A stretch of 64,000 nt of DNA, from positions 1,510,201-1,574,200 of the forward strand of contig JBGLNR010000001.1 in NCBI GenBank assembly GCA_041320515.1. The letters are read 5' to 3'. Positions 25,055-44,787 of this stretch are shown piece by piece. Origin of the DNA: Planctomycetota bacterium. Lineage in GTDB: Bacteria; Planctomycetota; PUPC01; DSUN01. The notes under the pieces are model-generated. The model did not search any database. It was not told the DNA's origin and was given only the letters and a program-made list of their open reading frames with translations. The translations under genes and the position numbers were made by a program. Each line of letters starts with the position of its first letter. The stretch's first letter is position 1.

Positions 25055-25662
25055 GGCAGCGGTTGTGCCTCGCGGCGATGGCTGCCCTGGCAGTGGGGTG
25101 CGCCCAATGGCACGTCGCGGCTGCGGGGCAGGAACTCCGCGCCTAAGTTGTTCATCACGGCGAGCCGACGTGGAACCAGCTTTTCGCCGACTTCGAGCGC
25201 GACAGCGGCATCCACGTGGAACCCTCGTACGCGTGCCGGGGCGTCAACCTGGTGAGCACGGCGCTGGCCGACCTGGCGCGGCCGGGCGTGCGCATCGTGC
25301 TCTGCTTCTCGAAGGGCTGCCTCGGCCGCGTGAGCGACAAGATCCTGGCAAACGCGGGTGTTGCCGAGAAGGTGGCGCCGAACATCGTGAAGCGCATCCC
25401 CGGCGAAGAGGCCGTGGCGAAGGCTGTGGACGGCGTCAACGCCGACGTGGCTATCATGTGGAGCTGGGTGCTGCCGATCATCGGTGAGGACCGCTACCAA
25501 GCCGTCCCAATTCCGCCCGAAGTGAACGTTATCGACCCAGTGGTCGCTGTGCCGCTCAAGACGGGGACGAACGTAGCGGGCGCAGAGAAATTCGTTGCCT
25601 TCCTCCGAACTGGCAAGGCGCAGAAGCTCCTCGCGGCCGCGAGGCTTGCGGGACAGAAATGA
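25051..25662 (+). pseudogene. ModA-like binding lipoprotein interrupted by an in-frame TAA at codon 32; also shorter than its paralogue
   Basis: ATG 25051 (ATGA overlap with the upstream stop) gives MRQRLCLAAMAALAVGC..ELRA, then TAA at 25144-25146. The same frame continues VVHHGEPTWNQLFADFERDSGIHV..., matching the ModA-like gene at 21440..22294. Confidence 0.7.
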
Positions 25663-25735
25663 GGGGCAGGCGCCCGCGCTTGACAGCCGTTGGACGCCAG
25701 CCTATCATCATGCGGTCACTTCCAGGAGGAACAGC

Positions 25736-26620
25736 ATGTTCATGGGACGGATGCGGCTCGTCGCCGCGGTGTGCTGCCTCACAGGAAGCGTGGCCCTCGC
25801 CGGCGAGGCCGGCCCGGCCAAGGCGGCGGAGCCACCCGCCAAGGCGGAGGCGGACCCCCTCGACAAGCTCAGGACCGTCCACGCCGGCGGCGCCGTGTTC
25901 CAGTTCGGCTTCGAGGAACGCATCCGCGTCGAGCACTGGAACAACGAGGACCTCAATCGCCACGCGGACGACGAGGACCACCGCTGGTTCAACCGCACCC
26001 GCCTGCGGATGGACACGATCTTCAACACTGTGTTCCGCACCCGCGTGGAGCTGGTGGACGGGCGGGAGTGGGAGTCCGACCGCGAGCCCAGGCCCCAGAT
26101 GGATGAGCTGGACCTGCATCAGGCCTACGTTGAGATCGGCAGCAAGCCGTGGATGGCCCGCCTCGGGCGGCAGGAGCTGGACTTCGGGTCCCGCAAGCTC
26201 GTCGCCGCGCCCACCTGGGGCAACCTCCTCCGCTCGTTCGACGGGGCGCGCATCTCCTATACGAGCGACTTCGTGGATGTGAGCGCCTTCTGCGGCAGCG
26301 TGGTGGCGCCCGTGGACGATCACTTCAACAGGCACCGCCACGGCGAGCGCTTCTGCGGCATCTTCGCCACCCTCAAACCCGTCAAAGACCACAAGCTCGA
26401 CCTCTACGCCCTCCGCCTCCACACCTGGAACGACGACTACTACGTCACGGGCGAGGACAGGGCAAAGGGCGAGCACAAGCGTTACACCTACGGCGCCCGC
26501 CTGTCCGGCAACATCACCAGGCGGTGGACCTATGACGTCGAGGGAGCCATCCAGCGCGGCCACTACGCGCACGACAAGATTCGCGCCTGGGCCTTCCACG
26601 CCGACACGGCCTACACCCTG
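25736..26620 (+). pseudogene. Alginate-export-family (AlgE-like) outer-membrane beta-barrel, 3'-truncated
   Basis: AGGAGG RBS and a signal peptide. Beta-barrel-like alternating sequence runs up to ..AFHADTAYTLK (about nt 26620). After that the frame turns into Arg/Pro/Ser-rich junk while a TPR reading frame begins. Confidence 0.65.
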
Positions 26621-26793
26621 AAGGCAGGCTGGACGAGGCGATCGCGAGCTTCGAGCTGGCGCGCGCCGCGCGGCCCGGCGACCCCGCGCCTCTCTGCGGC
26701 CTGGCCGCGTGTTACAAGGGGAAGGGGCAGCTCGACAGGGCCGCGGCCTGGGCCGAGCAGGCCATCGCGCTCGACCCCTCGCCCGACTCGCTT

Positions 26794-29655
26794 GTGCTGG
26801 GCGCCGAGGTCGCTCTTGCCGCGGCGGGCGGCTGGGACCCGTTCGCAGCGCCCCCGAAGGAGTCGGATGACGCCAGACGGAAGCACCTCCAGAAGGCGGA
26901 AAAGCTGGCGCAGTCGGCCCTGGAGAAGCACCCCAACTGTGGCCCCGCCCACCGCCTGCTCGCCGAGGCGGCCATGCGGATGGGCGGCGCCGACCGCGCC
27001 ATTCTCCACCTCCGCCGGGCGCTGCAACTCGAGCCCGAATCTCGTGCGACCCGTTTGGCCGCCGCGGACGCGTTCATCCGCGCGGGGAGGCCCCAGGAGG
27101 CCCTCGAACACTGCCGTTACGTGGCCACGCAACTGGACGCCCTGGGCGAGCTGGGGGACCAGGAGCGGAGCCAACTCCTGCGGGCGTTGAGCCGCGCGGG
27201 ACGGCTGGCGTCGGACCTCAAGATGGGCGAGCAAGCCGTCCGCTTCTGGAACACGTATCTCCTGGCAGGCGGAGACAGGGGGGTGGGACACGTGGGCCTA
27301 GTCATCGGCCACTACGTGAAGGGCGACTACGCGCAGGCCGTCGAGGAGGGCAACAGGGCCACCCGCTACATCACACCCACGGAGCCCAGTTGGGAGCTTC
27401 GCTACTACCGGGGGCTGTCGTACCTGGAGATGAAGCGCTACGACCCGGCGGCGGAGGACCTGCGGGTCGCCGCCACGATTCGCCAGGACGCCCGAGCGCT
27501 GTACGCGCTCGGCATCGCGCTCCTGCGGGATGGCGAGCGTGCCGAGGCGCGGGGCGCCCTCGTGGAGGCGTTGCACCTGGACCCGCGCCACGCGGCAGCG
27601 CTCCAGGAGCTGGTGGGCCTGTACGAGGCCGATGGCGAGACCGTGGCCGCCCTGGAGATGCTGCGGCGCTCCGTCGCCGCGGCGCCGGCGGCGCGCGAGC
27701 TGCGCGAGCTGCTCGCCCGCTTCTGCCTGCGCCACGGCCTGGACGCCGATGCCGAGGAGGCCCTTCACGCCCTCCACCAGCTCAAGCCGCCGTCGGCCCC
27801 GGCCGCGGCCGCTCTGGCCGCGTTCTACGGGGAGAGGGATGACCCCGAACGGGCGCTGCCACTTGCCCGCGAGGCCATGGCGCTCGAGCCGGCCTCCGCC
27901 GACTTCGCCCACCTGGCGGCCAAGCTCGAGGCCGGCCTCGGGCGCACCGGGGAGGCGATCGCGCATTTCGAGCAGGCCCTGCGCCTGGACCCCAAGCGAG
28001 CCGAGGCGTACGTGGACTGGGCCGCCACACTCGAGGCCGCAGGGGACCAGGCTGGCACGGAAGAGGTCCTCGCCCGCGCTCGCAGGGCCCTGCCCACCGC
28101 CACAGCCGTGCGCTGCGCCTACGCGCGCTTCTGCCTCGCGGGCGGGCGCGCGGAGGAAGCCGTCGCCGAACTCCGAAGGGCGAGCGACGCGGACCGCCGC
28201 GACCTCAGGCCGCGCACGGCGCTCGTGGACCACTTCCTGGCGGCCGGCGGGCGCGAGGAGGCGCTCCAAGTGGCCCGTGAGGCGGTGGACGCACTGCCGA
28301 AGAACATCGAGGCCCACAAGCTCGTCGCCCGCGTCCATCGGGCGCGCGGCGACTGGGAGAAGCTGGTCCTCGTTCTGCGTGAGGCCGCGAGGCTGCCGGG
28401 GGGCAGGGAGGAGGTGCTGCCACAGCGGCTGGCCGCCGAGATGCACGAAGGCATCTACGGCGCTGCGCAGGAGGCAGGCGCCCCCGAGCCTGCCGGCACC
28501 CAGGCCGCGCGGAGGAGCCTGGCCCTCATGGTGGCGATCTCGCGGTTCTTCGCGGGAAACAGGACGGAGGCAGTCGCAGACGTGGGGCGCGTCGCCAGTG
28601 GGGACCGCCACGACTGCGACGCCGGCTTCGTCCTCTCCCTCATGCAACTGGCCATGAGCCAGCCGGCGCTCCGGGCGCCAGCCTGCCGCGACTACGCCGT
28701 GCCCAGCGTGGCGCTCGACGCATGGCGCGACCTCGCCCAGCCCAAGGACGCCTCCGGCGTCGAGGATACGGAACGCGACCCGCGCAACCTGCCCGACCGG
28801 GGGACCGTGGGAAGCCCGCACAAGGACCTCCGGGCCGAGGAAGTGAAGCAGATCGCCGAGCGCCTCCTTCATGCCTACGCGTACGAACGGGCCGGCTGGC
28901 CCGACACGGCGGCGGGGGAGATGGAGCGCATCCTGAAGATCGCGCCCGACTGCTTGTTCGCCTGCACCATGGCCCCCGTGCTGTGGGAGCGCGCCGGCGA
29001 GCGCGCGAAGGCCATCGCCGCCTGCGAACGCGCCATCGGGAGCCGCAAGGGCTTCGCCTACGGCCGCCTCCTTCTAGGGGACCTGTGCCTGCTGGATGGC
29101 AAGCTGGACCGTGCGAAGGCCCTCTACGCGGAGGCGGCAAAGGACGAGAAGGCGCCCTTCGAGGCACGCACGAAGCTCGCCCTCATCGCGTCGCTCGCGG
29201 GGGACGAGCAGGGCGCCATCGAGGCCTGGCGGGAGATCGTCCGCGTGCAGCCCCGGCACATGCCCGCCTGTAACAACCTTGCCTGGCTTCTGGCCACCGC
29301 GTCCGAGCCGCAACTCGCCGAGGCCGCCGCAGCGGCCCAGAACACCTTCGAGGTGGCGGGAGAAATCCCCGCCGCACTCGACACCGTGGGCTGGGTGCGG
29401 CACCTGCGTGGCGACCGCCTGCGGGCGCTCGATGCCCTGCAAGCGGCTGCGCGGCTGGCCCCGCACAGGGCGATAGCGCTGCTTCATCTCGGCATGGCCT
29501 GCCTCCGGGAGGGGCGGGTGGCGGAGGCCAGAAAGGCCCTGGCGCGTGCGGTCGAACTCGCGCCGCACGAGCCCCTCGCGGACCGCGCCCGCCAGGCGCT
29601 CCGCGACCTGCGCCTGGCTGGGGCCGGTGAGAAGGGGGCGGGCGATGGCCAGTAG
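26794..29655 (+). CDS. Large TPR-repeat protein, apparently 5'-truncated (TPR homology extends upstream to about 26620 with no start codon)
   Basis: 953-aa ORF of TPR-like helices. The same frame upstream reads EGRLDEAIASFELARAARPGDPAPLCGLAACYKGKGQLDRAAAWAEQAIALDP without a start codon. Confidence 0.75.
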   Translation: MLGAEVALAAAGGWDPFAAPPKESDDARRKHLQKAEKLAQSALEKHPNCGPAHRLLAEAAMRMGGADRAILHLRRALQLEPESRATRLAAADAFIRAGRPQEALEHCRYVATQLDALGELGDQERSQLLRALSRAGRLASDLKMGEQAVRFWNTYLLAGGDRGVGHVGLVIGHYVKGDYAQAVEEGNRATRYITPTEPSWELRYYRGLSYLEMKRYDPAAEDLRVAATIRQDARALYALGIALLRDGERAEARGALVEALHLDPRHAAALQELVGLYEADGETVAALEMLRRSVAAAPAARELRELLARFCLRHGLDADAEEALHALHQLKPPSAPAAAALAAFYGERDDPERALPLAREAMALEPASADFAHLAAKLEAGLGRTGEAIAHFEQALRLDPKRAEAYVDWAATLEAAGDQAGTEEVLARARRALPTATAVRCAYARFCLAGGRAEEAVAELRRASDADRRDLRPRTALVDHFLAAGGREEALQVAREAVDALPKNIEAHKLVARVHRARGDWEKLVLVLREAARLPGGREEVLPQRLAAEMHEGIYGAAQEAGAPEPAGTQAARRSLALMVAISRFFAGNRTEAVADVGRVASGDRHDCDAGFVLSLMQLAMSQPALRAPACRDYAVPSVALDAWRDLAQPKDASGVEDTERDPRNLPDRGTVGSPHKDLRAEEVKQIAERLLHAYAYERAGWPDTAAGEMERILKIAPDCLFACTMAPVLWERAGERAKAIAACERAIGSRKGFAYGRLLLGDLCLLDGKLDRAKALYAEAAKDEKAPFEARTKLALIASLAGDEQGAIEAWREIVRVQPRHMPACNNLAWLLATASEPQLAEAAAAAQNTFEVAGEIPAALDTVGWVRHLRGDRLRALDALQAAARLAPHRAIALLHLGMACLREGRVAEARKALARAVELAPHEPLADRARQALRDLRLAGAGEKGAGDGQ

Positions 29656-32600
29656 CACCCCCCGAACTCTCCTCGCCGCGCTGGCGCTCGCCGCCGTGGG
29701 GACGCCTGGCAGGGCGGACCCCATCACGTCATGGCCCTCCCTCGAAGCCCAGCGCGCGCGGCCTGGGGGCCTCTTCGCCGCCTGGAGCCTCGACCAGAGG
29801 AATGTCCTGGCCGCGCTCCGAGCCTTCGAGAGAGCGGACCCTGACAGGGACATCGCGGCGTTGCGGCGGCGCGCGGCGGATGACCCCGCCGACCTGGACA
29901 CAGCGGACGCCTTGGCGGCGCGGTGCGCCCGCAAAGGGTTGTTCCACCAGGCCGTGCCGCTGTTCCAGGGGATTCTGGAACTCGACCCCACGTTCACGCG
30001 AAGCCGGCTGAACCTCGCCGAACTGCTCCGCGACCTGGGGTCGCTCGACCTCGCCGACCAGGAGCTTGTGGCGGGGCTCAAGCGGGAGCCGGATTCGCAG
30101 GTTCTCTGGCGTGCCACGGCTGAGCTTCGGGCGGCCAGGGGGGACGCAAGCGGGGCCGCGGTGGCCTGGAAGGAAGTCGTTCGCCTGAGGCCCGACGACC
30201 GCGAAGCGCTGCTTCACCATGCGCGCGCCTGGGCGCGAACCGGCGCCCGAGAGGCGGCGCAAGCGGCATTGGGTCGCGTGGAACGGGCCGCTACGGGGAC
30301 ACACTCCGTTGCGAGTGTGTCCCCATCTGCGCAACTGGAGCTGGGGAACCTCCAGCGCGGCCTGGGCGACCTGCGGGCCGCGCGCGAGGCGTGGGAGAAG
30401 CTCCTCAACGGGCCGGCGCGGGGCGCCGCGGCGGTCCAGCTCGCCCTCCTGCACCTCTATCGCGGCGAGTTCCGCGAGGCCAACGCGCGCCTGGGCGGCG
30501 CGGGGACACACTCCGTTGCGAGTGTGTCCCCTGAAGATGCGACCCCGCCGGACGGGGACGCCATGCTGCTGGCCGCACGGGCAGCGATTGCGCAGGGGCT
30601 TGGGGACCGCGATGCGGTGCTGTCGTTGTGCGGCCAAATCAGGGCGGTAGGCCGGCCACGCCTGGCCGCGACCCTCCTGACGAGCCTTTGGCTGGCCGAA
30701 GGCGACTCCGCGGCCATCCAGGCCGTGTGGGCGGCGTTCCCCCAGGGAGGCGATGGCGCGGCGGATGCCTACCGCCAACTGGTCACACTCACGGCCAGCA
30801 CCCCCGACAGCCGTCCCGCGCTGGCCCTCAAGCTCAGCCGGGCCGAGGTCCTCAAGGAAGCCGGCTGGCTGGCCCAGGCCATCGAGCTTCTCGAGGCGGC
30901 CGGGGGGACACACTCCGTTGCGAGTGTGTCCCCACAGGTCAAGAGCAGCCTCGTCGTCGGCGAGGCCCTGGCCCTGTGCTACAAGGCTGCCGGCCGCCGA
31001 GAGCGCGAGCTGGCCGTGCGCCAGGAAGTCGCCGATGCCCGCCCCGACAACCCCCTGGCGTCCAGCAGGCTCGTCTGGGCACTGATCGACTGCGGCGAAT
31101 GGACGCGGGCCGAGGAGCGGTGCCGGGACTTCCTCAAGCGCTTCGAAGGCGACCTCGAGAGCCGTGTGGCGGGCGCTACCATCGCCATCCGCAAGGGCGA
31201 CTACGCGACGGCCAAGGAAGACTGGGAGAAGATCGCCGGGAAGCACACCGCCGACGAGAGGCCGTATGCCTTGCTGCTCGACGCCATTGTGCGGTCCGGG
31301 CAGTTCAAGGACGGCCCGGTGGCCATCCGAGGCAGGGAGGGGACGCTCCCCACCTTCGTGCCCGGGCCGCTGGAACGGGCCATCCTGGCCGCCGGCGAGG
31401 AAAAGTGGGACGAGGCGCTGACCCAAGCCCAGCGGGGGCTGCGCCTGACCCCGCGGGACCATAGACTCTGGCTGCTCGCCGGGGCCGCGCTGGAGCGCAA
31501 GGGCGATGTCGGCGGGACCGCGGCGCGGTACCGCGTCGCGGCCTGGCTCCGGCCCGACCAGCCCTCTCTCCAGGAGACGCTGGCGCGCACAGCCTCCCGT
31601 GCCGGCATGCTCGCCGTGGCGGCCGATGCATACCGCACGGCGATCGGCCAGGGAGCGCCGTCCGACGTGCAGCTTGAGTTCGCGGACGCCCTTCTCCAAT
31701 GGGGCCGCCAGGACGAAGCGATCGCCGTCCTCGGGGCCGTGCGGCCCGCCTCCGCCGCGCAGCGCGAGGCGGTCACCCTGCGCCTGGCCGAAGCTCGCCT
31801 CGCAAAGGGCGAGGCCGACCAAGCTCTGGAACTTGTCCAAGGCCTCCTCGCCAAGGACCCTGGGGCGCCGAGTGCGAAGCGCGTCGCACGGATGGCGTGC
31901 CAGGCCAAGGGCGACCTGGACGGGGCGATCAAGATCTGTGAGGCGGCGGGTCCGGGTCCCGACGCTGCCTCGGCGGATGCCGAACTGGGGCTGCTGTACC
32001 TCCTGGCACGGCGCTACAGGGAGGCCGGCGAGAAGCTCGACAGCGCCGGCGCACGGGCCACCGAGGGCGCCACACGCGCGGAATTGCGCCAGAGGCAGGC
32101 CATCGCACTCATCGGGCAGAACGCCCCGGAGAAGGCTCTGGCCGTACTGAAGGAGATTCAGACGGAACTCAGCGTGCGCACGGGGCGGAACGACGACCTG
32201 GTGGTGCTGTTCGCCGCCGTGGGAGGCGGGGCCGCGGCCGAAGCGTTGCTCAGCCAGATCGCCAAGAGCGACGCGACCAGGGGCGGCTGGCTCCGCGGCG
32301 CCCTGCCGGCCCTGGCGAAGGACAGGGCACTCGCGGCCATGGTCCTCACCGCATACGAGGCCGAGCGCTCGCAGTGGCACGGCAAGGCGGGGGAACTGTT
32401 CGCCAAGGCGGCCAAGAGCGCGCCCGACGCCGCCCTCTGGCTCCTGGAGGCGGCCGAAGCCCACGCCAACGCGGGCCAGCTCGACGCCGCGCTCGCCCTC
32501 GCACGGCAACTCGTCGCCGCCTGCCCGAGCACGGCCGAAGCCTATCTCCTCCTCGCCTCGGTCCTCGACAAGCAGGGCAACGCGGAGGCCGCCTTGGCCG

Positions 32601-33121
32601 AACACGCGCGCGGCGCCGCCATGCTGGGCAAGCAGGCCGTCAGCCGGCGACGCGCCGTGGCCGACAGGCTTCGGGCGGGAGGCAGCATCGAGGCCGCCAT
32701 CGCCGCCTACCGCGCCCTCCTCGACGCGGCGCCCGACGACCTGGCGGCCGCCCGCGCGCTCGCCTCGCTCTACGCCGCCCACAAGCCCGACCTCTTGGCC
32801 GAGGCCGAGCGCCTCGCCGCCCTCGCCGTCAAGGGCGACCCCAGCAACGCCGCCGCCCGCGACACGCTCGGCTGGATACACTTCCTGGCGAAAAGGCCGG
32901 AGGCCGCACGGCCCGAGATACTGGCCGCCATCGCCCTCGAACCCCGAAACGCCCTCCACTACTACCACCTGGGCATGGTCGAGTTCGTCCGAAGCCGCAA
33001 GGAGCGGGCCGGCCGCGCCCTGCGAATCGCCCTCGCCCTCGACCCCAAGCTCCCCGACGCCCAGACCGCGCGCTCCACCCTCGAGGCCATCGAGAGCGAG
33101 TCCCCCGCCCCGCGGCCCTGA
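29645..33121 (+). CDS. Very large secreted TPR-repeat protein
   Basis: ATG at 29645 overlaps the upstream stop by 11 nt. Signal peptide TLLAALALAAVGTPGRA, then TPR-like repeats throughout. It carries three in-frame 30-bp palindromes. Confidence 0.8.
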   Translation: MASSTPRTLLAALALAAVGTPGRADPITSWPSLEAQRARPGGLFAAWSLDQRNVLAALRAFERADPDRDIAALRRRAADDPADLDTADALAARCARKGLFHQAVPLFQGILELDPTFTRSRLNLAELLRDLGSLDLADQELVAGLKREPDSQVLWRATAELRAARGDASGAAVAWKEVVRLRPDDREALLHHARAWARTGAREAAQAALGRVERAATGTHSVASVSPSAQLELGNLQRGLGDLRAAREAWEKLLNGPARGAAAVQLALLHLYRGEFREANARLGGAGTHSVASVSPEDATPPDGDAMLLAARAAIAQGLGDRDAVLSLCGQIRAVGRPRLAATLLTSLWLAEGDSAAIQAVWAAFPQGGDGAADAYRQLVTLTASTPDSRPALALKLSRAEVLKEAGWLAQAIELLEAAGGTHSVASVSPQVKSSLVVGEALALCYKAAGRRERELAVRQEVADARPDNPLASSRLVWALIDCGEWTRAEERCRDFLKRFEGDLESRVAGATIAIRKGDYATAKEDWEKIAGKHTADERPYALLLDAIVRSGQFKDGPVAIRGREGTLPTFVPGPLERAILAAGEEKWDEALTQAQRGLRLTPRDHRLWLLAGAALERKGDVGGTAARYRVAAWLRPDQPSLQETLARTASRAGMLAVAADAYRTAIGQGAPSDVQLEFADALLQWGRQDEAIAVLGAVRPASAAQREAVTLRLAEARLAKGEADQALELVQGLLAKDPGAPSAKRVARMACQAKGDLDGAIKICEAAGPGPDAASADAELGLLYLLARRYREAGEKLDSAGARATEGATRAELRQRQAIALIGQNAPEKALAVLKEIQTELSVRTGRNDDLVVLFAAVGGGAAAEALLSQIAKSDATRGGWLRGALPALAKDRALAAMVLTAYEAERSQWHGKAGELFAKAAKSAPDAALWLLEAAEAHANAGQLDAALALARQLVAACPSTAEAYLLLASVLDKQGNAEAALAEHARGAAMLGKQAVSRRRAVADRLRAGGSIEAAIAAYRALLDAAPDDLAAARALASLYAAHKPDLLAEAERLAALAVKGDPSNAAARDTLGWIHFLAKRPEAARPEILAAIALEPRNALHYYHLGMVEFVRSRKERAGRALRIALALDPKLPDAQTARSTLEAIESESPAPRP
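30295..30324. repeat. 30-bp perfect palindrome GGGGACACACTC-CGTTGC-GAGTGTGTCCCC, copy 1, inside a CDS
   Basis: 12-bp stem and 6-nt loop. Translated in frame as GTHSVASVSP. Confidence 0.95.
30502..30531. repeat. 30-bp perfect palindrome, copy 2, inside a CDS
   Basis: Identical 30-mer in the same codon phase. Start-to-start distance from copy 1 is 207 nt. Confidence 0.95.
30904..30933. repeat. 30-bp perfect palindrome, copy 3, inside a CDS
   Basis: Identical 30-mer in the same codon phase. Start-to-start distance from copy 2 is 402 nt. Confidence 0.95.
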
Positions 33122-33431: not shown

Positions 33432-33507
<76 letters not shown>

Positions 33508-33581: not shown

Positions 33582-33720
33582 GAATGAAGCCGCGCTCCGG
33601 TCAAGGCGCTGCCCTGTAGGCGGGGCGTCTCTGCCCCGCGTGGCCACCCTGTAGGCGGGGCGTCTCTGCCCCGCGTGGCGGCCCGCGGGCCAGGGAACGG
33701 CCCGCCTACAGGCTTCATTC
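33582..33720. repeat. MITE/REP-like composite palindromic element
   Basis: Outer inverted repeats are GAATGAAGCC...CTGTAGGCGGG and CCCGCCTACAGGCTTCATTC. Inside are two tandem copies (33612-33644, 33647-33679) of ccctgtaggcggggcgtctctgccccgcgtggc. The core also occurs at 52389-52414. Confidence 0.85.
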
Positions 33721-33841: not shown

Positions 33842-35638
33842 GTGCTCGCCCTGAAGGAGAGTCCCAGCCGAGACCAGATCATCTTCACAACAGTGGAGTT
33901 GCGGGCAGCGCTGGAGGGCCCCTCCACACCGGGCGTCGGGCCGCGTCCTACCGAGGAGCATGAGGGGACACTGGCCGACGATCAACTGCTGACCGCAGTC
34001 GGGCACTTGGCCAGTGAAGGCTTCGTTCGGCTGCTCACGTTGTCAACCGGGGAGCAGCGCATCCTGCTCGTGCCCGAGCTGTTGAATAATCTGGCATCGT
34101 CGGTCGTGCTCGAAGCCCGGCGGAACCCGCGTGGGCTGGGGGCAGTCGAGGAGAGCAAGCTCTTCGACAACAGCTACGGCTTTCGGGAACTCGAATCCCT
34201 ATCCGAGTCCGATCAGGCGCTGTTGCTCGACGGAACGGTCACGGCGTTCCTCGAGAACCGGCTCACTTACCGTTGCTTCCGCGAGTCGTGGGGCGAGATG
34301 AAGCTGCTGGTGTTCCCCGAGCTGATGAACCTGAAGAAGCCGCAGCGCGACGACCTGGCGACCGAGGATGGGGCCTCGTACATCCTCTCGGGCTCGACCG
34401 AGAACACCTTTGCCGGACTGGTCGTGCTGCTCGGCTACACGGATCTGTTTCTCCGCACCGATCAGGCGCACGACGTGGCGTGGTTCGAGTCCGACCGCAA
34501 GGATATCTGCGGCGTGCGACAGGTTCGCGACGACCAGGAACGGGCGCTGGTGCTGCTCTTCAGCCGCAGCGTCAGCGCCCACGTCCGCAGGGTCTTCGAG
34601 GGGCTGGTGGAACAGGTGCTGGGCCACCGGGAAATCAGCGTGCGACGGCTGCGTCCGGTGAACTGTCCGCACTGCCACATGGTGGTGGAGCGGACCGTGA
34701 TGGCTCGGCGGCTCAAGCAGGGCAAGGCGACGGTCTACTGCGAGGACTGCGGCAACCTCGTCGTCTTGCCGCCCGACGAGCCGCTCACCGTTTACCCGGC
34801 GGAACGAGTAGCCATCACGCACCAAGGAGCCATCGCCGAACTGCGGACGCGGTTCGAGGAAGTGATCTACGAACTGCTGCGACTCGCGCAGGCCGAGAAG
34901 CGGCCCGCGCCAACCTGTTTCCTGAGCTATGCCTGGGGCAACGCGGATCACGAGCGCTGGGTCGAACGCCGGCTGGCAATGGACCTCGAGAAGGCCGGCA
35001 TCACCGTGGTGCTCGACCGGTGGGAGACAGCGCGCGCCGGAGCCAGCATCGAGCGTTTTCTGGAGCGCATCGCAAAGGCGGACCGGGTGCTAGTCGTGGG
35101 CACGCCGGCGTATCGGCAGAAGCACGAGAAGCAAGACCCCAGCACTGGCACAGCGGTGGCCGCCGAGATCAAGCTGGTCTTGGCTCGGCTGTCGGCAACC
35201 GAAGCCGAGAGCGACTCGGTCATCCCGTTGCTGCTGGAGGGCGCGCCCGAGGAGTCGCTGCCTCCCGCCCTGCGGACCCGCGCCTTCAGCGACTTCCGCG
35301 ACGACGACCGCTACTTCGACACCGCGCTCGATCTGCTGCTGGGCCTGTATCGCATCCCGTCCGACCATCCGGCGGCGAAGCACTGGAGACAAGTGCTGGG
35401 CGGCGGCGAGCTGGGCCGGCGTGCGATGGAAGCAAGCGGGGAAGATGAGCTGCCAACCGACGAGAGGCTGATGAAACGCGCCCTGAGGCAGGTTGGCCGC
35501 CACGCACTGAGCCTGGCGTTCAAGAACGGCAAGCCTGTGGTCGTCGAGCAACATGGCCAACTGGTCTGGCTGTATGCCGATGGAACGACGAAACCCTACG
35601 ACCCCGGGACGAACGGCAATACCGGGGCTGTCCCATGA
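33842..35638 (+). CDS. Multidomain protein: COR-like winged-helix region, CxxC...CxxC zinc ribbon, TIR-like domain and a small C-terminal antitoxin-like tail
   Basis: The N-terminal ~270 aa resemble Roc-COR COR domains. Zinc ribbon CPHCH...CEDCG is at nt 34664-34750. The TIR-like block CFLSYAWGNADHERWVERRLAMDLEKAGITVVLDRWE...ADRVLVVGTPAYRQK...AAEIKLV is at about nt 34913-35356. The start is uncertain: an ATG at 33756 in another frame reads MADDLYTDLLGIP and would join this frame with a 1-nt indel. Confidence 0.75.
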   Translation: MLALKESPSRDQIIFTTVELRAALEGPSTPGVGPRPTEEHEGTLADDQLLTAVGHLASEGFVRLLTLSTGEQRILLVPELLNNLASSVVLEARRNPRGLGAVEESKLFDNSYGFRELESLSESDQALLLDGTVTAFLENRLTYRCFRESWGEMKLLVFPELMNLKKPQRDDLATEDGASYILSGSTENTFAGLVVLLGYTDLFLRTDQAHDVAWFESDRKDICGVRQVRDDQERALVLLFSRSVSAHVRRVFEGLVEQVLGHREISVRRLRPVNCPHCHMVVERTVMARRLKQGKATVYCEDCGNLVVLPPDEPLTVYPAERVAITHQGAIAELRTRFEEVIYELLRLAQAEKRPAPTCFLSYAWGNADHERWVERRLAMDLEKAGITVVLDRWETARAGASIERFLERIAKADRVLVVGTPAYRQKHEKQDPSTGTAVAAEIKLVLARLSATEAESDSVIPLLLEGAPEESLPPALRTRAFSDFRDDDRYFDTALDLLLGLYRIPSDHPAAKHWRQVLGGGELGRRAMEASGEDELPTDERLMKRALRQVGRHALSLAFKNGKPVVVEQHGQLVWLYADGTTKPYDPGTNGNTGAVP

Positions 35639-36405
35639 CCGAAGCAGCAGCGAAACGCTTGCGGATGTTTGCTGGGCCGAACGGCTCCGGCAAATCGCGC
35701 ATCAGCCGGGATCTGGCGGCGGCCGGGCTGTTCCACCTGTACCACTACCTGAACGCCGATGACGTGGAACAGGCGTTGGTCAGCACTGGATTGGACTTCG
35801 CGCGTTTCGGCATTGATGTCTCGTTCGCGGACCTGTGCCGCTCACTCAAGGGAGGCGGGCGGTTGGCGGACGACCATCCTTTCTTCCGTGACGCCCGACT
35901 CGATGGTTCCGTGTTGAGCGCACCACTGGGCAACGGATACCTCGCCGCAGCCATCGTGGATTTCCTCCGCGAACAACTGATGCAGAAGGGCGTTTCGTTC
36001 TCGTTCGAAACCGTCATGTCGCACCCCAGCAAGATCGAGTTCTTTGCGAGAGCGAGGGCCGCGGGCTACAAAACCTATCTGTACTTCGTCTGCACGAACT
36101 CGCCGGACTTGAACGTTGCAAGGGTGCGCACTCGCGTGGAGAACACCGGCGGGCATGCCGTACCGGAAGACAAGATCCGCGAACGGTACCCCCGCTGTCT
36201 GAAACTGGTACGCGGCGCGCTCCAGCACGCGTACCGGGCCTACTTCTTCGACAACTCGGGGAGCGAACCTGTCTGGCTGGCTGAGTTCGACCCGGAACAC
36301 ATCTGTCATCTGAAGCTGTCCTCAGCCAGCTTGCCAACATGGTTCCGCGAGTGGGTTTGGGACCCCGACGCGGCCTCAAAGGATTGGCAGGGGAACACCT
36401 CATGA
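35635..36405 (+). CDS. Zeta-toxin-like P-loop kinase/ATPase (COG4185-type)
   Basis: Walker [31 protein letters not shown] and YFFDNSG are typical of zeta/COG4185 proteins. The start overlaps the upstream stop (ATGA). Confidence 0.8.
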
Positions 36406-37925
36406 GACGACGCGATTTCTTGAAGGCCGCGGCCCTGGGCGCGACGGCGGCGGGGCTTTCCTGTCAGCGTCTCCCAGGGGCACGCCGCGGCGAACGCAGG
36501 CCCAACGTGGTCTTCATCCTGACCGATGATATGCGGTGGGACGCGCTGGGTTGCGCGGGGCATCCGTTCCTCAAGACGCCCCACCTCGACCGCATCGCCG
36601 CCGAAGGGGCACGGTTCGCCAACGCCTTCTGCACCACCTCCCTCTGCTCGCCCAGCCGGGCCTCGATGCTCTCGGGCCTCTATGCCCACGCCCACGGCGT
36701 GACGAACAATTTCACCGACTATCCGAACGCCCTCCCCAGCTTCCCCCGCCAGCTTCAGGCCGCAGGCTATGCCACCGCCTATATCGGCAAGTGGCACATG
36801 AACGAGGAGAGCGACGAACGCCGCCCAGGCTTCGACTTCTGGGCCTCACACAAAGGCCAGGCGAAATACTACGACACCGAGTTCAATATCAACGGCACCC
36901 GCGATGTGCTCAAGGGCTACTACACGACCCGCATCACCGACCTGGCGATTGACTGGATCGCGCAGCAGCGGCCGCAGGACAAGCCGTTCCTGCTGATGCT
37001 CGGCCACAAGGCCCCCCACTCGCCCAACACGCCCGAGCCGCAATACGAGCACCTCTTCGATGACGTGAAGATCGAGTATCCCCCCACGGCGTTCGCGCTG
37101 GAGGGCAAGCCCGACTGGATTCGCCAGCGGCTCGACACCTGGCACGGCATCTACGGCCCGCTCTGGGGCTTCCGCAAGGACTTCCCCGACCGACGCGTCG
37201 AAGCGTTCGCCGCCTTCTGCCGAGCCTATTATGCCACCATCAAGAGCGTGGACGACTCGGTCGGCCGCCTCTACGCGGCTCTCAAGCTGTCAGGCCAGCT
37301 CGACAACACGCTCATCATTTTCGTGGGCGACAACGGCTTCTTCCTGGGCGAGCACGGGGTGATGGACAAGCGGACGATGCACGAGGCCAGCATCCGCATC
37401 CCCCTCCTCGCCCGCTATCCCGCACTCATTCGCCCAGGCGCCGTGGTGCCCCACATGGTGCTCAACGTGGACCTGGCGCCCACCATCCTCGACATGTGCC
37501 GCGCGGCTCCACTCCCGAAGGTCCATGGCCAATCGTGGAAGAACTTGCCGAACTGGGTGACGCAACCTGGCCGGGAGGACATGGTGAGGTACTTCGACTG
37601 GCGAAACTCCTGGTTTTACGCCTACGACTACGAGAAGCAGTTCCCCTACACGCCGAACGTCCGGGGTGTGCGGACCGACCAGTGGAAGTACATCCACTAC
37701 CCGCACGGCGACAGCGGCCCCGACCGCCACAAGGCCGAACTCTATCACCTCAAGTCCGACCCGCTCGAAACGAAAAACCTCATAGACGACCCCGCCCACG
37801 CCCCGAAGCTGGCCGAACTGAAGGCCGAGCTGGAGCGCCTGATGAGGTCCGCCGGCGCCCTCCCCGACCGCATGCCCCTGGACGAGGGCGTCAAGGCTAC
37901 GCTCCCCGAGAAGTCCATCCGCTGA
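36402..37925 (+). CDS. Formylglycine-dependent sulfatase with a Tat-type signal
   Basis: [18 protein letters not shown] is a twin-arginine signal. [15 protein letters not shown] and the [11 protein letters not shown] (C-x-P-x-R) motif are present. Confidence 0.9.
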
Positions 37926-38883
37926 ACGCAGGAAGACCTCGGCGACGGCGGAGGAGAAGCTGCAACGCGAGAAGGCGTTCCACGGCCAACGCTGGGGCGA
38001 CGACTCGCCGCGGCAGCTCAACGACGAGTTCCACTCGATCATGGAGGCCGCCCGCGCCTTCTAGCGCAGCGGCGTCCTGTCCCAGTGCAGACAAGTGGGG
38101 AGAAAGGGCGGGGGCGACTGGCCGCACTCTGACGGCCGTTGCGACGTTGCTGGCCGTCGCACCGGCCAAGGAAACGGTGCGTGAGACAGCCGTTCGCCGG
38201 GCGTCCAGACTGCCGTGGCGGTTAGCTCGCGGGCGGCGGGGGGGATATCCGCGAACTCACACTCCGCCACGGCGGCCGGACGAGACGCTGGCGTTCAGCC
38301 AGTCGCCCCCGAGATTATCAAGTGTGGCCCCTCGCCCCGGCGCCATCACGTGAGAGCCGATGTAGCGCCGATGCCTTGTCCGCCTCCTGAGTTTTCACTC
38401 TCGATGCCACACGGTTCAAGGGGCCTCCTGGGACATCAATTTGTCCCAGGCTGTCTTACGTAAGAGCAAGTGCCGTGCCAAGAGGGGCGGAAAAACGCGA
38501 AGAGCACACCGGTCTGGGGTCATCGGCATGCGTAAAGCGCGTGTAGGCAATGTGTTACGATTCAGACGGCACGACATGGCCGCGCTGCCGGGATGCGCTC
38601 TGGCACTGGCCTGGCGATCGGTGTGTCTGAAGTGATCTTCCGACTCTGTCCGCGCAATCCTCGGCGTTCCGGAGCGTAAGAGATTGGTGCGACAGTAGTT
38701 AGCCCTGGCGCCACACTGCTGTGGCGCCCGTGCGGCGCCTCAAGCGGCATCCGAGCGGGGGAAAGTGAAGCACCCGAGTCCCAAAGCAGTTTCGCTGAAT
38801 ACCCGGGCCAGCGAGCCGTCAAACATGATAGAATAGTAGAGGGGGCGGGGTGCGCCCCGAAGTGTCCAGAAAGGAGCACGACC

Positions 38884-39738
38884 ATGTATCCCAGCAGAGC
38901 ATTCGCCACTGTCGTCCTTGGCCTTGCCGCCGCGCTGGCGCCGCGTGGGGCGTCCGCCGCGGCCACGCCGCTCTCGACCGACTACCGGCATGCCGCCCAG
39001 GCCGACAAGCAGGCCGCGCAGGGGGGCGGCACGCTCTCCGAGAGCGCGGTGCTGCCCCGCGGGCTGCGGCTGGCCGCGCCCGACGCGAAGGGGGAGAAGT
39101 CCCAGGCCGCCGCGACGGCCATCTACCTCTTCAAGGTGTCGCCGGACGCCACATCGTTCACCATCGAGGTGGGCTACCGCGCCGACGCCGCGACGAAGGA
39201 CAAGGGGGCCGCCGGCCTCCTCTTCGTCCGCAACAGCAGGCCGGCGGGCGGGAAGCCCATCGAGCCCCAGAACCGCCCCGTGGCGCAAAAGCCCGAGGCG
39301 GCCCCCTCCGGCGACCTCTACCCCCTGAAGGGCGCCGAGACGACCGCGTCCTTCACCGTGCCAAGCGCGGGCCGGGTCGTGGATGGCGCCCTGGAGGTTC
39401 ATCTGGTCGCCCAGGCGGGGCAGGCATTCGACGCGCTATACGTGCAAGTCGAGTCCCATCGCGCCGCGGACGGCTACGCGGGCCGCGGCAGCTACCAGGT
39501 GCCACAGGTGCCCTCGGGGCGACCCTACGACCCGCTGAACTACGGGCAGCCGCCGCCCCTGGCCGGCTGCGGCGTGCCGAACCTCTACCCCAACCTCTAC
39601 GGAGCCGGCCACGCGACCTCGCAGGACCCCATCTTCTGGAACCAGGTCTGGCAGATGCAACGGCCGCACATGTACAACCTCTACCCGTACCCCTACCCCT
39701 ACCACGGCGGGCACGGGCACGGGCGGCATGGCAGGTAG
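38884..39738 (+). CDS. Secreted hypothetical protein with a Tyr/Pro- and His-rich C-terminal tail
   Basis: AAAGGAG RBS and a signal peptide. The C-terminus is NLYPYPYPYHGGHGHGRHGR. A possible extended -10 (TGATAGAAT) lies at 38826-38834. Confidence 0.7.
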   Translation: MYPSRAFATVVLGLAAALAPRGASAAATPLSTDYRHAAQADKQAAQGGGTLSESAVLPRGLRLAAPDAKGEKSQAAATAIYLFKVSPDATSFTIEVGYRADAATKDKGAAGLLFVRNSRPAGGKPIEPQNRPVAQKPEAAPSGDLYPLKGAETTASFTVPSAGRVVDGALEVHLVAQAGQAFDALYVQVESHRAADGYAGRGSYQVPQVPSGRPYDPLNYGQPPPLAGCGVPNLYPNLYGAGHATSQDPIFWNQVWQMQRPHMYNLYPYPYPYHGGHGHGRHGR

Positions 39739-39947
39739 GCCCTGCCGCATGCCCGGGCGGCCCCAATGCCGGGCCGGCGGCGCGTAGGGGCGCCCCTGCG
39801 TGGGCGCCCTCTGCCGGCGCCAGGGCCGGCGCTGGCTACGTGTGTCGGGGCATCCGCGCCTGCCCAGGCGCCTGAAGAGGGCGGCCACACAGGGCCGCCC
39901 CTACCTGCGCCGGACGAGCGCGTCGCTGTCACGGGCAGGAAAGCAGA

Positions 39948-39975
39948 CTGGCACAGCCGGGGGCGGCTGTGCCAG
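39948..39975. terminator. 11-bp stem-loop between convergent genes
   Basis: CTGGCACAGCC-GGGGGC-GGCTGTGCCAG. Confidence 0.5.
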
Positions 39976-40009
39976 TGGGGGGGAATGCGAGGGACCGCGA
40001 GGGGGCGGC

Positions 40010-40978
40010 TCACTTCTCCTTGGTGATCTTGTAGGCCTGGCCCTCGACGACGAGGATCATCGGCTCGTTCTTGGCCAGGTAGATGCCGATGGTCGGGTGC
40101 TTCTTGAGGAGGGCGAAGCACTCGTCGCTGAGGGACTTGACCTCGATGAGCTTGGCCTTGTGCGTCGCCTCGTCGTAGAGGCTGTCGTGGAGGAAGCCGT
40201 CGGCCTTGCGGTAGAAGGTCTTGTCGCCGATGGTCACGATGGTCGCGGCGGCGGCGCGGTCGAGGTCCAGGCTCTTCGCCTCGTCGTCCCCGAAGCCCAC
40301 GCGGTGGCCGCCGCCTCCTGGTCCGGCGGGGGCTGGGGCTGCGCTGCTGCCCTGCTTGTGGAGTTCCTGGGCGCGCTCGACGGCGCCGCGGCCGTCGCGG
40401 GGCGCGTTGGCGAAGGTTGCCCCTGCCTCGCGCAGGCGCTCGGCAAGCTGGGGCCGGGCGCCGTCCTCGACCACGAGGAACGAGGTGTAGGGGGTGACGA
40501 TGCCGTACTGCTTGCCGAGCTTCACGATCTCGTCCTCAAGCTCCTTGTTCTTGCCGCGGAGGCGGATTTCGTCGAGGAGGTAGGCCACCTTGCGGACGGC
40601 CCACAGGCGGGGCAGGAAGCCGTTGTCGGCGGTCTCGGCAAAGGTGGTCTCGTAGACGAACTCCTGGGGCTTGCCGCCCACGGTGCCCGAGAGCTTGATG
40701 GCCTTGGCCCCGCCGCCCTGGAAGCGGCCGAGGAGCATAAGCTGGCTGCCCCTGAAGAGATCGGGCAGCGTCTTCGGATACACGTCGAGGGTCTTCAGGC
40801 CGGGGATGTCGAGCTTCAGGTCGGACAGCACGGGGTTGGCCACCTTCTGGTAGAAGGTGGAGACCTTGACCTCGATGTTCTCCTTGGGCGTCACGTAGTC
40901 GGACGTGGCGCGGTTGTCGCCCGCCAGGCGGTCGAGGAGTTCGGTACTGCCGATTGTGCTCGCCCAGACACGCGACAC
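40010..40978 (-). pseudogene. C-terminal portion of a VIT/vWA-family (inter-alpha-trypsin-inhibitor-like) protein, 5'-truncated
   Basis: The ORF starts (GTG) at ..TIGSTELLDRLAGDNRATSDYVTPKENIEVKVSTFYQKVANPVLSDLKLD.. In homologues this follows the vWA domain. No VIT or vWA domain is present, and a stop lies 2 codons upstream. Confidence 0.6.
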
Positions 40979-41052
40979 AACTCACGGTATATCAACAACT
41001 TACGAATTGACTCACTCCAAACCAGCCCGAATCTGACAATCCCCACAACACA

Positions 41053-41093
41053 CAACAGGTTGTGGCTGCCGCCGAGCACGCCACAACTTGTTG
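41053..41093. repeat. 13-bp inverted repeat with a 15-nt spacer at the left edge of the defence island
   Basis: CAACAGGTTGTGG ... CCACAACTTGTTG; 12 of 13 positions are complementary. Confidence 0.7.
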
Positions 41094-41297
41094 ACTCGGC
41101 AGAGTCGGCAGACTCGGCAGGTTCTCGGGGGGGGGCTCGCCGGCCCCACGTGGCCGCACCACGGAGACACGGAGGCCACGGAGGGTCCCGTGCGGAGAAA
41201 GCCCCCCGCAATCGGTTCTCACACAGAGGCGCAGAGGCCGCAGAGAAGACCTGCCCCCGAAAGGACGCGAAACGCGAGACGCGAAACCCATACTTGA

Positions 41298-41328
41298 CCA
41301 CGGATGGCACGGATGGGCACTGATGGGA
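41298..41328. repeat. Tandem CACGGATGG(G)-type repeat, left island edge
   Basis: accacggatggcacggatgggcactgatggg. An inverted, near-identical copy lies at 48021-48060. Confidence 0.7.
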
Positions 41329-41379
41329 GAAGAGGGGGCCAACCACAGAGACACTGAGAACATGAAGCAGGCCGCAGCA

Positions 41380-43800: not shown

Positions 43801-43840
43801 CCGCGCCCTTCCTCTTCGCGTCCGTAGTGCGGCCCTCAGG

Positions 43841-44010
43841 CCAGGCGGCGGAGGGAACCTATAAGGAATGCAGGAAGGCAGGAAAGGAGGAGAGAACGCC
43901 ACGGACGGTCCCGGCAACCCAACCCCCGCTCTGCTTCCTGGGTTCCTGCATTCCTTAGAGGCATCTCCTCTGGCCTCGATGGTTCCGCGTGCAAGTCTGC
44001 ACGCCCTACC
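43841..44010. repeat. About 170-bp structured repeat, copy A, between res and hepT-1
   Basis: It aligns along its full length with 44788-44959. It contains long hairpin arms CTATAAGGAATGCAGGAA / TTCCTGCATTCCTTAGAG and the terminal hairpin CGTGCAAGTCTGCACG. Confidence 0.85.
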
Positions 44011-44672: not shown

Positions 44673-44787
44673 GCCGGTTTCTCCTTCCGCCCTCATTATG
44701 CGCGAACCGCGCCTGGGGCGCAAGCCGCCCTCAGGGGCCTGTCATTCCGGGCGGAGCGCAGCGAAGTCGAGGAATCTCTCTGGCTCC

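What the first reader, a model, noticed from the sequence alone, without database searches (positions are those of the whole stretch)
30295..30933. Three identical 30-bp perfect palindromes inserted in the same codon phase inside a TPR gene
GGGGACACACTCCGTTGCGAGTGTGTCCCC (12-bp stem, 6-nt loop) occurs three times, at 30295, 30502 and 30904. All copies are 100% identical, in the same orientation and in the same reading phase. Each adds the peptide GTHSVASVSP after an ..AAG/..GAG turn between TPR helices, and the flanking DNA differs at each site. Perfect nucleotide identity together with palindromy argues for a DNA/RNA-level element rather than protein-level selection. It recalls Rickettsia palindromic elements, which insert in frame into genes, and REP/RAYT-type mobilisation. 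Length 30, being a multiple of 3, keeps the host ORF intact.
Basis: partly seen in the sequence, partly recalled or inferred. Interest (0 to 1): 0.7.

Follow-up and report, generated by a model that had tools for sequence, protein, structure and literature searches.

The report
In-frame palindromic DNA inserts in TPR gene
Three identical 30-base hairpin-forming DNA repeats were recently copied, in frame, into loop-coding spots of a planctomycete TPR protein gene; this is a new family of a phenomenon already known from Rickettsia and REP elements.

Summary
GGGGACACACTCCGTTGCGAGTGTGTCCCC (12-bp stem, 6-nt loop) occurs exactly three times, at 30295, 30502 and 30904. All copies share strand and codon phase inside a 1158-aa TPR gene of a Planctomycetota genome, and each encodes GTHSVASVSP.

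Evidence that this is a DNA-level insert:
- Six orthologues (76-38% identity) lack all three inserts.
- Three assemblies of the species carry them unchanged.
- They use rare codons.
- They fall in three of the four internal low-confidence inter-helix loops of an AlphaFold model.
- The sequence has no stop codon in any of six frames.
- A related metagenome contig carries the same family as an inverted doublet, in frame, in the linker of an unrelated sigma-54 response regulator. One stem change there is compensated on the other arm.

The same window also holds a classical GTAG-tagged REP doublet in frame in a GH2-like gene, absent from nine orthologues. In-frame palindromic inserts are therefore a trait of this genome.

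Best reading: a small REP/RPE-like palindromic repeat family, tolerated where it adds a harmless loop. The mobilising enzyme is unknown. The element has no GTAG/CGTC tag, and I found no transposase in 64 kb. Genome-wide copy number could not be measured. I rate it a new member of a known kind, of moderate interest.

The parts
30295..30324 (+). Copy 1 of the 30-bp perfect palindrome (12-6-12). Encodes GTHSVASVSP, residues 218-227 of the TPR protein.
   Evidence: Exact match. It lies in a pLDDT<50 loop between helices 202-217 and 227-239. It is absent from five orthologues covering this site.
30502..30531 (+). Copy 2, identical, same strand and codon phase. Residues 287-296.
   Evidence: Exact match. 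It lies in the low-confidence segment 287-303, before helix 304-318. It is absent from five orthologues.
30904..30933 (+). Copy 3, identical, same strand and codon phase. Residues 421-430.
   Evidence: Exact match. It lies in the low-confidence loop 422-429, between helices 409-420 and 436-448. The empty site is seen in DNA of the 76%-identical orthologue L055, with a net difference of +27 nt, and in all six orthologues at protein level.
29645..33121 (+). Host gene: a 1158-aa TPR solenoid protein with an N-terminal signal-like segment (P0001). It sits downstream of, and overlaps by 11 nt, another TPR gene.
   Evidence: Pfam TPR_19/TPR_16/TPR_11 and other TPR hits. An identical protein is on record. 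The AlphaFold model is an all-helical solenoid with mean pLDDT 84.5. GC3 is 0.87.

Best explanation
The three 30-mers are copies of a short, lineage-specific palindromic DNA repeat. It belongs to the same general kind as REP elements and Rickettsia palindromic elements. The copies entered the TPR gene after this lineage split from its nearest sequenced relative.

Shown here:
- The inserts are absent from orthologues and identical at DNA level.
- They keep the frame (30 nt) and have no stop codon in any of six frames.
- They use rare codons.
- They land in inter-helix loops, where ten small residues can be tolerated.
- A sister lineage has the same family in another gene, in both orientations, with the palindrome maintained by a double (compensatory) change.

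Inferred, not shown:
- The unit propagates as a single-stranded DNA hairpin. It is either moved in trans by a hairpin-recognising enzyme (a RAYT-like HUH/Y1 transposase is the only known precedent) or copied locally by template switching or gene conversion.
- Selection then removes every copy that breaks a protein. The survivors are in-frame copies in loops and linkers, in the phase that gives a Cys-free, uncharged peptide.
- The clustering (three copies in 640 bp here, three in 3 kb in L033) points to short-range copying. It could be one insertion followed by two intragenic copy events.
For: - Exact triplicate; none expected by chance.
- All six orthologues (76-38% identity) lack the inserts. 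The DNA empty site for copy 3 is seen in L055.
- Three assemblies of the species carry all three copies with zero substitutions, although one host protein differs by one residue.
- L033 has GGGGACACACTCCGCCGCGAGTGTGTCCCC followed, one base later, by the reverse-orientation GGACACATTCGCAACGGAATGTGTCC. Both are in frame in the REC-AAA+ linker of an NtrC-type regulator. They are absent from the 11 orthologues that cover the linker, and from the window species' own orthologue P0292.
- The C>T change in one arm of the second L033 copy is matched by G>A in the other arm.
- The L033 contig ends in a further partial copy.
- No stop codon in six frames.
- Rare codons ACA 8%, GTT 8%, AGT 4% and CCA 9% are used; the joint codon choice has probability about 10^-7.5.
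- The inserts coincide with three of the four internal pLDDT<50 segments, all between helices.
- The same genome tolerates a GTAG-tagged REP doublet in frame in a GH2-like gene, absent from nine orthologues.
- Intragenic REPs, including two per ORF and including bacteria of the PVC superphylum (Planctomycetes, Verrucomicrobia, Chlamydiae), are documented (PMC3733652).
Against: - No GTAG/CGTC tag at either end.
- No Y1/RAYT, other transposase or recombinase domain in any called gene of the 64-kb window.
- No extragenic or other copy in the window.
- No exact copy in the species-representative genome set or the metagenome set, other than a variant pair in L033 and one same-stem hairpin in L025. 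High copy number and dispersal, which define REPs, are therefore not shown.
- No presence/absence polymorphism among the three available strains, so mobility itself is inferred from orthologue comparison only.
- Site 3 shows a net +27 nt rather than +30 nt, so the insertion was not a clean 30-nt addition, or the loop also lost a codon.
- All three copies share orientation and phase (1/36 if random). That fits intragenic copying or selection but is not explained by simple random transposition.
Confidence: 0.62

Rival explanations
1. Recombination sites. Each 30-mer has the layout of a tyrosine-recombinase core site: two perfect 12-bp inverted arms around an asymmetric 6-bp spacer, as in loxP or dif. 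There are three direct repeats in the same codon phase. Recombination between any two would delete 69, 134 or 203 codons in frame, giving length variants of the TPR protein.
For: The architecture is 12-6-12 with a non-palindromic spacer. All three copies are direct repeats in one phase, and both spacings are multiples of three. They are confined to one gene.
Against: No recombinase was found in the window. Three assemblies all have the full-length gene with three copies and no deletion form. In L033 two copies lie head to head 1 nt apart, which leaves nothing to invert or excise. A matched change in both arms is what a hairpin needs, not what a protein-binding site needs. Equal phase follows automatically if copies spread by intragenic copying or are filtered by peptide tolerance.
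Confidence: 0.07
2. An adopted cis-acting hairpin. The inserts began as selfish DNA but are kept because the stable mRNA hairpins (-23 kcal/mol) act in the transcript. Possible roles are ribosome pause points between TPR modules, RNase entry or protection sites, or a binding site for a dimeric regulator on DNA.
For: The hairpin is very stable. There are zero substitutions in 90 nt across three copies and three strains, despite rare codons. The palindrome is preserved by a compensatory change in L033. All copies lie at module boundaries.
Against: Identity is equally explained by recent origin, because the strains are 99.7-99.85% identical over the shared 7.2-kb segment and identical across the gene region. 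There is no Rfam family, no terminator-like T-run and no promoter-like site at the copies. Orthologues do without them. The L033 copies sit in an unrelated gene in both orientations.
Confidence: 0.15
3. A protein-level motif. GTHSVASVSP is a selected peptide (a linker, a modification site or a cleavage site) duplicated along with TPR units, and the palindromy is incidental.
For: The same peptide phase occurs four times (three here, GTHSAASVSP in L033). The peptide is Ser/Thr/Pro-rich and lies in loops.
Against: The flanks share no homology, so units were not duplicated together with the insert. The three copies use identical rare codons. The palindrome is perfect. The reverse-orientation copy in L033 encodes a different peptide, GHIRNGMCP. 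The peptide is absent from all orthologues.
Confidence: 0.04
4. An assembly or sequencing artefact, such as adapter or hairpin-derived sequence.
For: The copies are perfect and identical short palindromes. The exact 30-mer is not found in the large public scans outside this species.
Against: The copies are present in three separate assemblies with different flanking arrangements. The ORF stays intact with the same phase three times. Diverged relatives of the element occur in an independent JGI metagenome contig.
Confidence: 0.02

Closest known systems
Intragenic REP elements (GTAG/CGTC-tagged repetitive extragenic palindromes found inside ORFs, e.g. in O. terrae, a member of the Verrucomicrobia, and in Thauera; Di Nocera et al. 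2013, PMC3733652)
   Same: Both are short (20-40 bp) hairpin-forming repeats found in frame inside genes for known proteins. Both occur as single units or as inverted dimers encoding 20-30 aa, sometimes twice in one ORF, and occur in the PVC superphylum. The window itself has such a tagged REP doublet in frame in a GH2-like gene.
   Different: This element has no GTAG or CGTC tag. Its palindrome is perfect rather than imperfect. No extragenic copies were seen, no RAYT was seen, and the copy number is unknown.
Rickettsia palindromic elements (RPE; Ogata et al. 2000/2002, as summarised in PMC3733652)
   Same: Both are palindromic repeats inserted in frame into genes that stay functional. Both add a peptide segment that orthologues lack, and both are lineage-specific.
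   Different: As I recall, RPE-1 is roughly 100-150 bp, whereas this element is 30 bp. Per PMC3733652, RPE-4 and RPE-6 are CGTC-tagged REPs. The phylum differs, and no sequence similarity to RPEs was tested.
REPIN doublets mobilised by RAYT transposases (Bertels & Rainey 2011; cited in PMC3733652)
   Same: The L033 pair is two inverted units 1 nt apart that fold into one long hairpin of -44.7 kcal/mol.
   Different: The window copies are singletons in direct orientation, 177 and 372 nt apart. No RAYT was found in the available sequence.
Tyrosine-recombinase core sites (loxP 13-8-13, dif 11-6-11; from general knowledge)
   Same: Both have inverted arms around a short asymmetric spacer, which gives the site a direction.
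   Different: These copies are coding and lie inside loops of unrelated proteins. One pair is adjacent and head to head. There is no recombinase and no recombination product.
Coding palindromes and GC-rich palindromic clusters in mitochondrial genes (e.g. Nematomorpha, PMC6649704)
   Same: Both are perfect inverted repeats embedded in protein-coding sequence without breaking the frame (abstract only).
   Different: The mitochondrial cases are far longer (up to 284 bp) and belong to different biology. I did not examine them further.

Membership tests
REP / REPIN (RAYT-associated) | A 20-40 bp palindromic unit that folds into a stable hairpin | tested here: met
   The unit is 30 bp with a 12-bp stem and folds at -23.3 kcal/mol.
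REP / REPIN (RAYT-associated) | A conserved GTAG or CGTC tetranucleotide at one end of the unit (PMC3733652) | tested here: not met
   The ends are GGGG.../...CCCC. The flanks differ at the three sites, and only copy 1 happens to be preceded by CTAC. By contrast, the window's other repeat, TGTAGGCGGGGCGTCTCTGCCCCGC, is tagged.
REP / REPIN (RAYT-associated) | Many dispersed, mostly extragenic copies per genome | tested here: inconclusive
   Only 64 kb plus about 14 kb from other strains could be read. All three copies lie in one gene and none elsewhere. The 5.97-Mb source contig was not retrievable.
REP / REPIN (RAYT-associated) | Units often paired in inverted orientation (BIME/REPIN) | tested here: inconclusive
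   This is met in L033, where an inverted pair lies 1 nt apart and folds jointly at -44.7 kcal/mol. It is not met in the window, where there are three direct singletons.
REP / REPIN (RAYT-associated) | A cognate Y1 HUH transposase (RAYT) gene flanked by the repeats | tested here: inconclusive
   No Y1_Tnp or other transposase Pfam hit was found in the called genes of the window that were scanned. The rest of the genome was not testable.
Rickettsia palindromic elements | In-frame insertion in an intact ORF; the insert is absent from orthologues | tested here: met
   Shown by alignments A1 and A2. The ORF is intact.
Rickettsia palindromic elements | The inserted peptide lies outside the folded core (surface or loop) | tested here: met
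   In the AlphaFold model, the inserts coincide with the low-confidence inter-helix loops 219-224, 287-303 and 422-429. This is a prediction, not a solved structure.
Rickettsia palindromic elements | Element length of about 100-150 bp and sequence relationship to RPE families | tested here: not met
   The length is 30 bp. Sequence similarity to RPEs was not tested. The RPE length figure is from my general knowledge.
Tyrosine-recombinase target site | Inverted arms around an asymmetric 6-8 bp spacer | tested here: met
   The layout is 12-6-12 with spacer CGTTGC, which is not self-complementary.
Tyrosine-recombinase target site | A cognate recombinase and detectable recombination products | tested here: not met
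   No recombinase domain was found in the window. All three assemblies hold the undeleted gene. Reads were not available.
CRISPR array | Repeats separated by unique spacers of similar, short length; cas genes nearby | tested here: not met
   The spacers are 177 and 372 nt, and the whole region is one ORF with orthologues. No cas domains were found in the window.
Intrinsic terminator | A GC-rich hairpin followed by a T-run | tested here: not met
   No terminator-like site was found at the copies. The tails are ATCTGC, TGAAGA and ACAGGT.

The most novel reading that the evidence does not exclude
The family could be a distinct class of minimal (30-bp, perfect 12-6-12, untagged) mobile hairpin with its own, still unknown mobilising enzyme and a codon-phase-specific way of entering genes. 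Alternatively, it could be a set of directional recombination sites that lets the cell delete TPR modules in frame. Either would go beyond REP/RAYT biology.
Probability: 0.12. Interest if true: 0.7.

Novelty: new member of a known kind. Interest (0 to 1): 0.4.

Why it matters
The locus gives a clean, datable example of selfish or neutral palindromic DNA adding loops to a bacterial repeat protein without breaking it. It has empty sites in orthologues, a sister copy pair in another gene, and a compensatory change that shows the constraint acts on the hairpin. It extends in-frame palindromic inserts to an uncultured Planctomycetota lineage that carries at least two unrelated families of them inside genes. 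If the complete genome shows a dispersed, untagged family with its own enzyme, that would widen the known range of hairpin-mobilising systems. If not, it is a tidy but ordinary case. In practice, such inserts break assemblies (L033 ends in one) and add spurious-looking peptides to protein families.

Tried and rejected
- **Public scans for the stem.** Scans for the stem with any 3-9 nt loop returned 14 genome and 39 metagenome stretches. Nearly all were unrelated single hairpins in low-GC organisms. Only L033, and possibly L025, are relatives. Neither scan found the window itself, so the source genome is not in those sets, and a genome-wide census was impossible.
- **Viral contigs.** This scan gave 7 unrelated hairpins.
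- **Peptide search.** I searched with a concatenate of the six-frame peptides to find other host proteins. 334 candidates shared words, but none reached E<=10. Ten residues carry too little score against 5.8 billion proteins, so the search was wasted.
- **P0059 look-up.** P0059 is the regulator orthologue on the source contig. It is not on record.
- **Long linker of orthologue P0029.** I tested it for palindromes and found none.
- **Relatives' loci.** About 150 kb (L055-L058, L066-L078) were scanned by pattern and covariance model. No family members were found.
- **The 300-nt direct repeats at 43.8-46.2 kb.** I suspected transposases, but they are two HepT/MNT toxin-antitoxin pairs.
- **Rfam and promoter/terminator scans.** They found nothing at the copies.
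- **Readings rejected.** CRISPR, terminator, protein-motif and artefact readings are rejected for the reasons given under rival explanations and the membership test.
Full report
**1. The observation**

The sequence GGGGACACACTCCGTTGCGAGTGTGTCCCC is present at 30295-30324, 30502-30531 and 30904-30933 on the + strand.
- No other match exists in the 64-kb window at up to three mismatches on either strand, and none occurred in 100 dinucleotide-preserving shuffles.
- It is a perfect 12-bp inverted repeat around the non-palindromic spacer CGTTGC. As a single strand it folds at -23.3 kcal/mol, against -8.8 ± 2.5 for shuffles.
- The stem cannot be extended at any site, and the flanks differ at each site.
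- A covariance model built from the family and run with filters off over the whole window returns only these three copies at 52 bits. The next best hit is an unrelated hairpin at 17 bits.

**2. The host gene**

The copies lie in ORF 29546-33121. The start on record is the ATG at 29645, which gives a 1158-aa protein (P0001).
- The gene has strong Pfam TPR matches, GC3 of 0.87 and six orthologues in Planctomycetota MAGs.
- The long ORF on the opposite strand is a high-GC shadow.
- All three copies begin at the same codon position. The spacings are 207 and 402 nt, and each copy encodes GTHSVASVSP, at residues 218-227, 287-296 and 421-430.

**3. Inserts, not ancestral sequence**

In the alignment of P0001 with its orthologues (76, 57, 49, 47, 46 and 38% identity in the search), every orthologue that covers a site lacks the peptide there.
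- For copy 3 the DNA of the closest relative (L055, 82% nucleotide identity) gives an empty site. It reads GCC CGC GAG GAG ATA AAG, against GCC GGG GGG ACA CAC TCC GTT GCG AGT GTG TCC CCA CAG GTC AAG in the window, a net +27 nt.
- All orthologues have the same loop length at this site. The 30-nt gain therefore came with the loss of one codon, or the loop lost a codon separately.
- At sites 1 and 2 the loops vary in length among orthologues, so exact boundaries cannot be set.

**4. Real, and recent or conserved**

Two further assemblies of the same species carry all three 30-mers without change. They are GCA_041308325.1 (L054) and GCA_041308305.1 (L079, whose protein differs by one residue).
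- The strains are identical to the window across the whole gene region. The lack of substitutions among strains therefore says little.
- The identity of the three copies to each other stands out more, given 18% nucleotide divergence from L055 in the flanks. It argues for recent copying, homogenisation or constraint.

**5. A DNA-level element**

- The peptide is encoded each time by the same codons, which include ACA (8% of Thr codons in the window's genes), GTT (8% of Val), AGT (4% of Ser) and CCA/CCT (9%). The probability of this codon choice given the peptide is about 10^-7.5.
- The 30-mer has no stop codon in any of its six frames. I estimate that roughly a quarter of random 30-mers of this composition would share that property, so this is permissive rather than striking.
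- Three independent insertions would share orientation and phase with probability 1/36. The two other forward frames would encode GDTLRCECVP and GHTPLRVCP. Selection against Cys and charge in an exported protein, or intragenic copying, can both explain the bias.

**6. The family exists elsewhere**

The collection scans did not find the source genome. Among 53 stretches, one GC-rich metagenome contig is informative: L033 (Ga0315284_10148692, 3084 bp, 69% GC).
- It has GGGGACACACTCCGCCGCGAGTGTGTCCCC at 159-188. One base later comes GGACACATTCGCAACGGAATGTGTCC, which is the same element in reverse orientation; its loop GCAACG is the reverse complement of the window's loop.
- In this second copy, the C>T change in one arm is matched by G>A in the other, so the palindrome is kept.
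- Both copies are in frame in the linker between the receiver and AAA+ domains of a sigma-54-dependent response regulator, giving GTHSAASVSP followed by GHIRNGMCP.
- The 11 orthologues that cover the linker lack this 18-residue stretch. So does P0292, the full-length orthologue from the window's own species.
- P0059, the source genome's version, is 80% identical to the L033 protein, the highest identity among the orthologues listed. The two organisms are therefore close relatives.
- L033 also ends in a truncated further copy (GGGGACACAT), as expected if the repeat breaks the assembly.
- The doublet can fold as one long hairpin at -44.7 kcal/mol.
- L025 has the same 12-bp stem with a 4-nt loop, between two co-directional genes. 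It may be an extragenic relative or a coincidence.

**7. Structural context**

An AlphaFold2 model of P0001 (7-sequence alignment, mean pLDDT 84.5, pTM 0.70) is an all-helical solenoid.
- Apart from the two termini, its only segments below pLDDT 50 are 42-47, 219-224, 287-303 and 422-429.
- Three of these four are the inserts, and each lies between consecutive helices.
- This is a prediction. It agrees with the orthologue alignment in placing the inserts in loops.

**8. The genome tolerates other palindromes in genes**

The window has 18 perfect hairpins with stems of 9 bp or more, against about 4 expected, and it has several repeat families.
- One family, TGTAGGCGGGGCGTCTCTGCCCCGCGTGG, carries the GTAG tag of classical REPs. 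It occurs as an extragenic tandem at 33612-33681.
- The same family also occurs as a 68-nt inverted doublet at 52381-52448 inside the GH2-like ORF 49735-53073, with high GC3 on both sides. A library search and alignment show that nine orthologues lack the corresponding ~20 residues, SIVGGASLPRVASRDGDVPPTIE.
- A further copy lies in frame at 10256-10298 in ORF 9590-11446. Another family lies at 16793-16819 in ORF 16227-17168. I did not check these two against orthologues.

**9. What is known**

Di Nocera et al. (PMC3733652) report that REPs occur inside genes in several species. O. terrae, a member of the Verrucomicrobia in the PVC superphylum, has the most GTAG cases.
- Some ORFs carry two inserts.
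- R. conorii RPE-4 and RPE-6 are CGTC REPs.
- REP families exist in Planctomycetes.

The phenomenon is therefore established. What is specific here is an untagged, perfect 12-6-12 unit, three identical copies in one phase in one gene, and the lineage.

**10. Mechanism**

The best-supported account is that the unit spreads as DNA and is constrained as a hairpin, and that survivors are the copies a protein can bear.
- The mobilising step is inferred. The only precedent is cleavage and transfer of single-stranded hairpins by RAYT-type HUH transposases.
- No such gene, and no other transposase or recombinase, was found among the called genes of the window that were scanned. The tag these enzymes use is also missing.
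- Local copying (template switching or gene conversion after a single insertion) would explain the clustering and the shared phase equally well.

The rival readings are weighed in their own sections: recombination sites, adopted RNA or DNA function, protein motif and artefact. None is favoured. An adopted function cannot be excluded with sequence alone.

**11. Limits**

- The complete source genome could not be scanned, so copy number, dispersal and the presence of a cognate enzyme are unknown.
- No strain-level presence/absence polymorphism was available.
- No reads or expression data could be examined.
- The gene calls used for the domain survey are my own crude GC3-based calls.

**12. Verdict**

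The element is best filed as a new, untagged family of REP/RPE-like in-frame palindromic inserts. I place confidence of about 0.6 in that reading and much less in any particular enzyme. I rate the interest as moderate.

Noticed in passing
window 52381-52448 (inside ORF 49735-53073): A 68-nt inverted doublet of a GTAG-type REP family lies in frame in a GH2-like glycosidase gene and encodes SIVGGASLPRVASRDGDVPPTIE. Nine orthologues lack these ~20 residues.
   Followed up: yes
window 10256-10298 (inside ORF 9590-11446) and 16793-16819 (inside ORF 16227-17168): Two more palindromic repeats sit in frame, with high GC3 on both sides. One is a reverse-oriented GTAG REP giving PRGAETPRLQAGRGA. The other is a CACAGGC...GCCTGTG hairpin giving EATGGTPVPP. 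Neither was compared with orthologues.
   Followed up: partly
window 33612-33681; also 45935, 46238, 57520, 57560, 55045-55171, 53131-53296: The window contains extragenic hairpin repeats of several families. They include a tandem pair of the GTAG REP just beyond tRNA-Gly and an 83-nt tandem repeat. Overall there are 18 perfect hairpins against about 4 expected.
   Followed up: partly
window ~26605 and ~33800: The 7.2-kb segment holding the TPR gene is 99.7-99.85% identical to two other assemblies, but its flanks differ from both at the same two points. On the left, an Alginate_exp-like ORF (25595-27190) runs into an N-terminally truncated upstream TPR gene. On the right, a TIR-domain protein replaces an FGE-sulfatase protein that has the same first ~13 residues (MADDLYTDLLGIP). 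The other assemblies keep the synteny of distant orthologues. The window therefore shows a rearrangement, a second copy of the segment, or a misjoin.
   Followed up: partly
window 33432-33507 (-) and 33842-48056: tRNA-Gly(CCC) is followed by a run of defence or addiction-type genes: a TIR-domain protein, a zeta-toxin-like kinase, a ResIII helicase, two tandem HepT/MNT pairs (the 300-nt direct repeats at 43.8-46.2 kb) and an N6/N4 DNA methylase. A sulfatase gene and two ORFs with no Pfam hit are interspersed. 28-nt inverted repeats at 41297-41324 and 48029-48056 bracket the helicase-to-methylase part. This looks like a genomic island.
   Followed up: partly
P0059 versus P0292 (not in the window): On the 5.97-Mb source contig, the sigma-54 regulator orthologue is called as only 293 aa and starts inside the Walker A region (MAVGTDSRTGKELV). 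Another strain has the intact 468-aa protein. This suggests a frameshift or interruption in the source assembly.
   Followed up: no
L033 3075-3084: The metagenome contig ends inside another copy of the element (GGGGACACAT). This suggests the repeat is frequent enough in that organism to break assembly.
   Followed up: partly
window 59770-59883 / 60647-60760 and 60195-63621: A 114-nt direct repeat (92% identical) lies near small toxin-antitoxin-like genes (PIN domain, PemK/MazF). It was not examined further.
   Followed up: no
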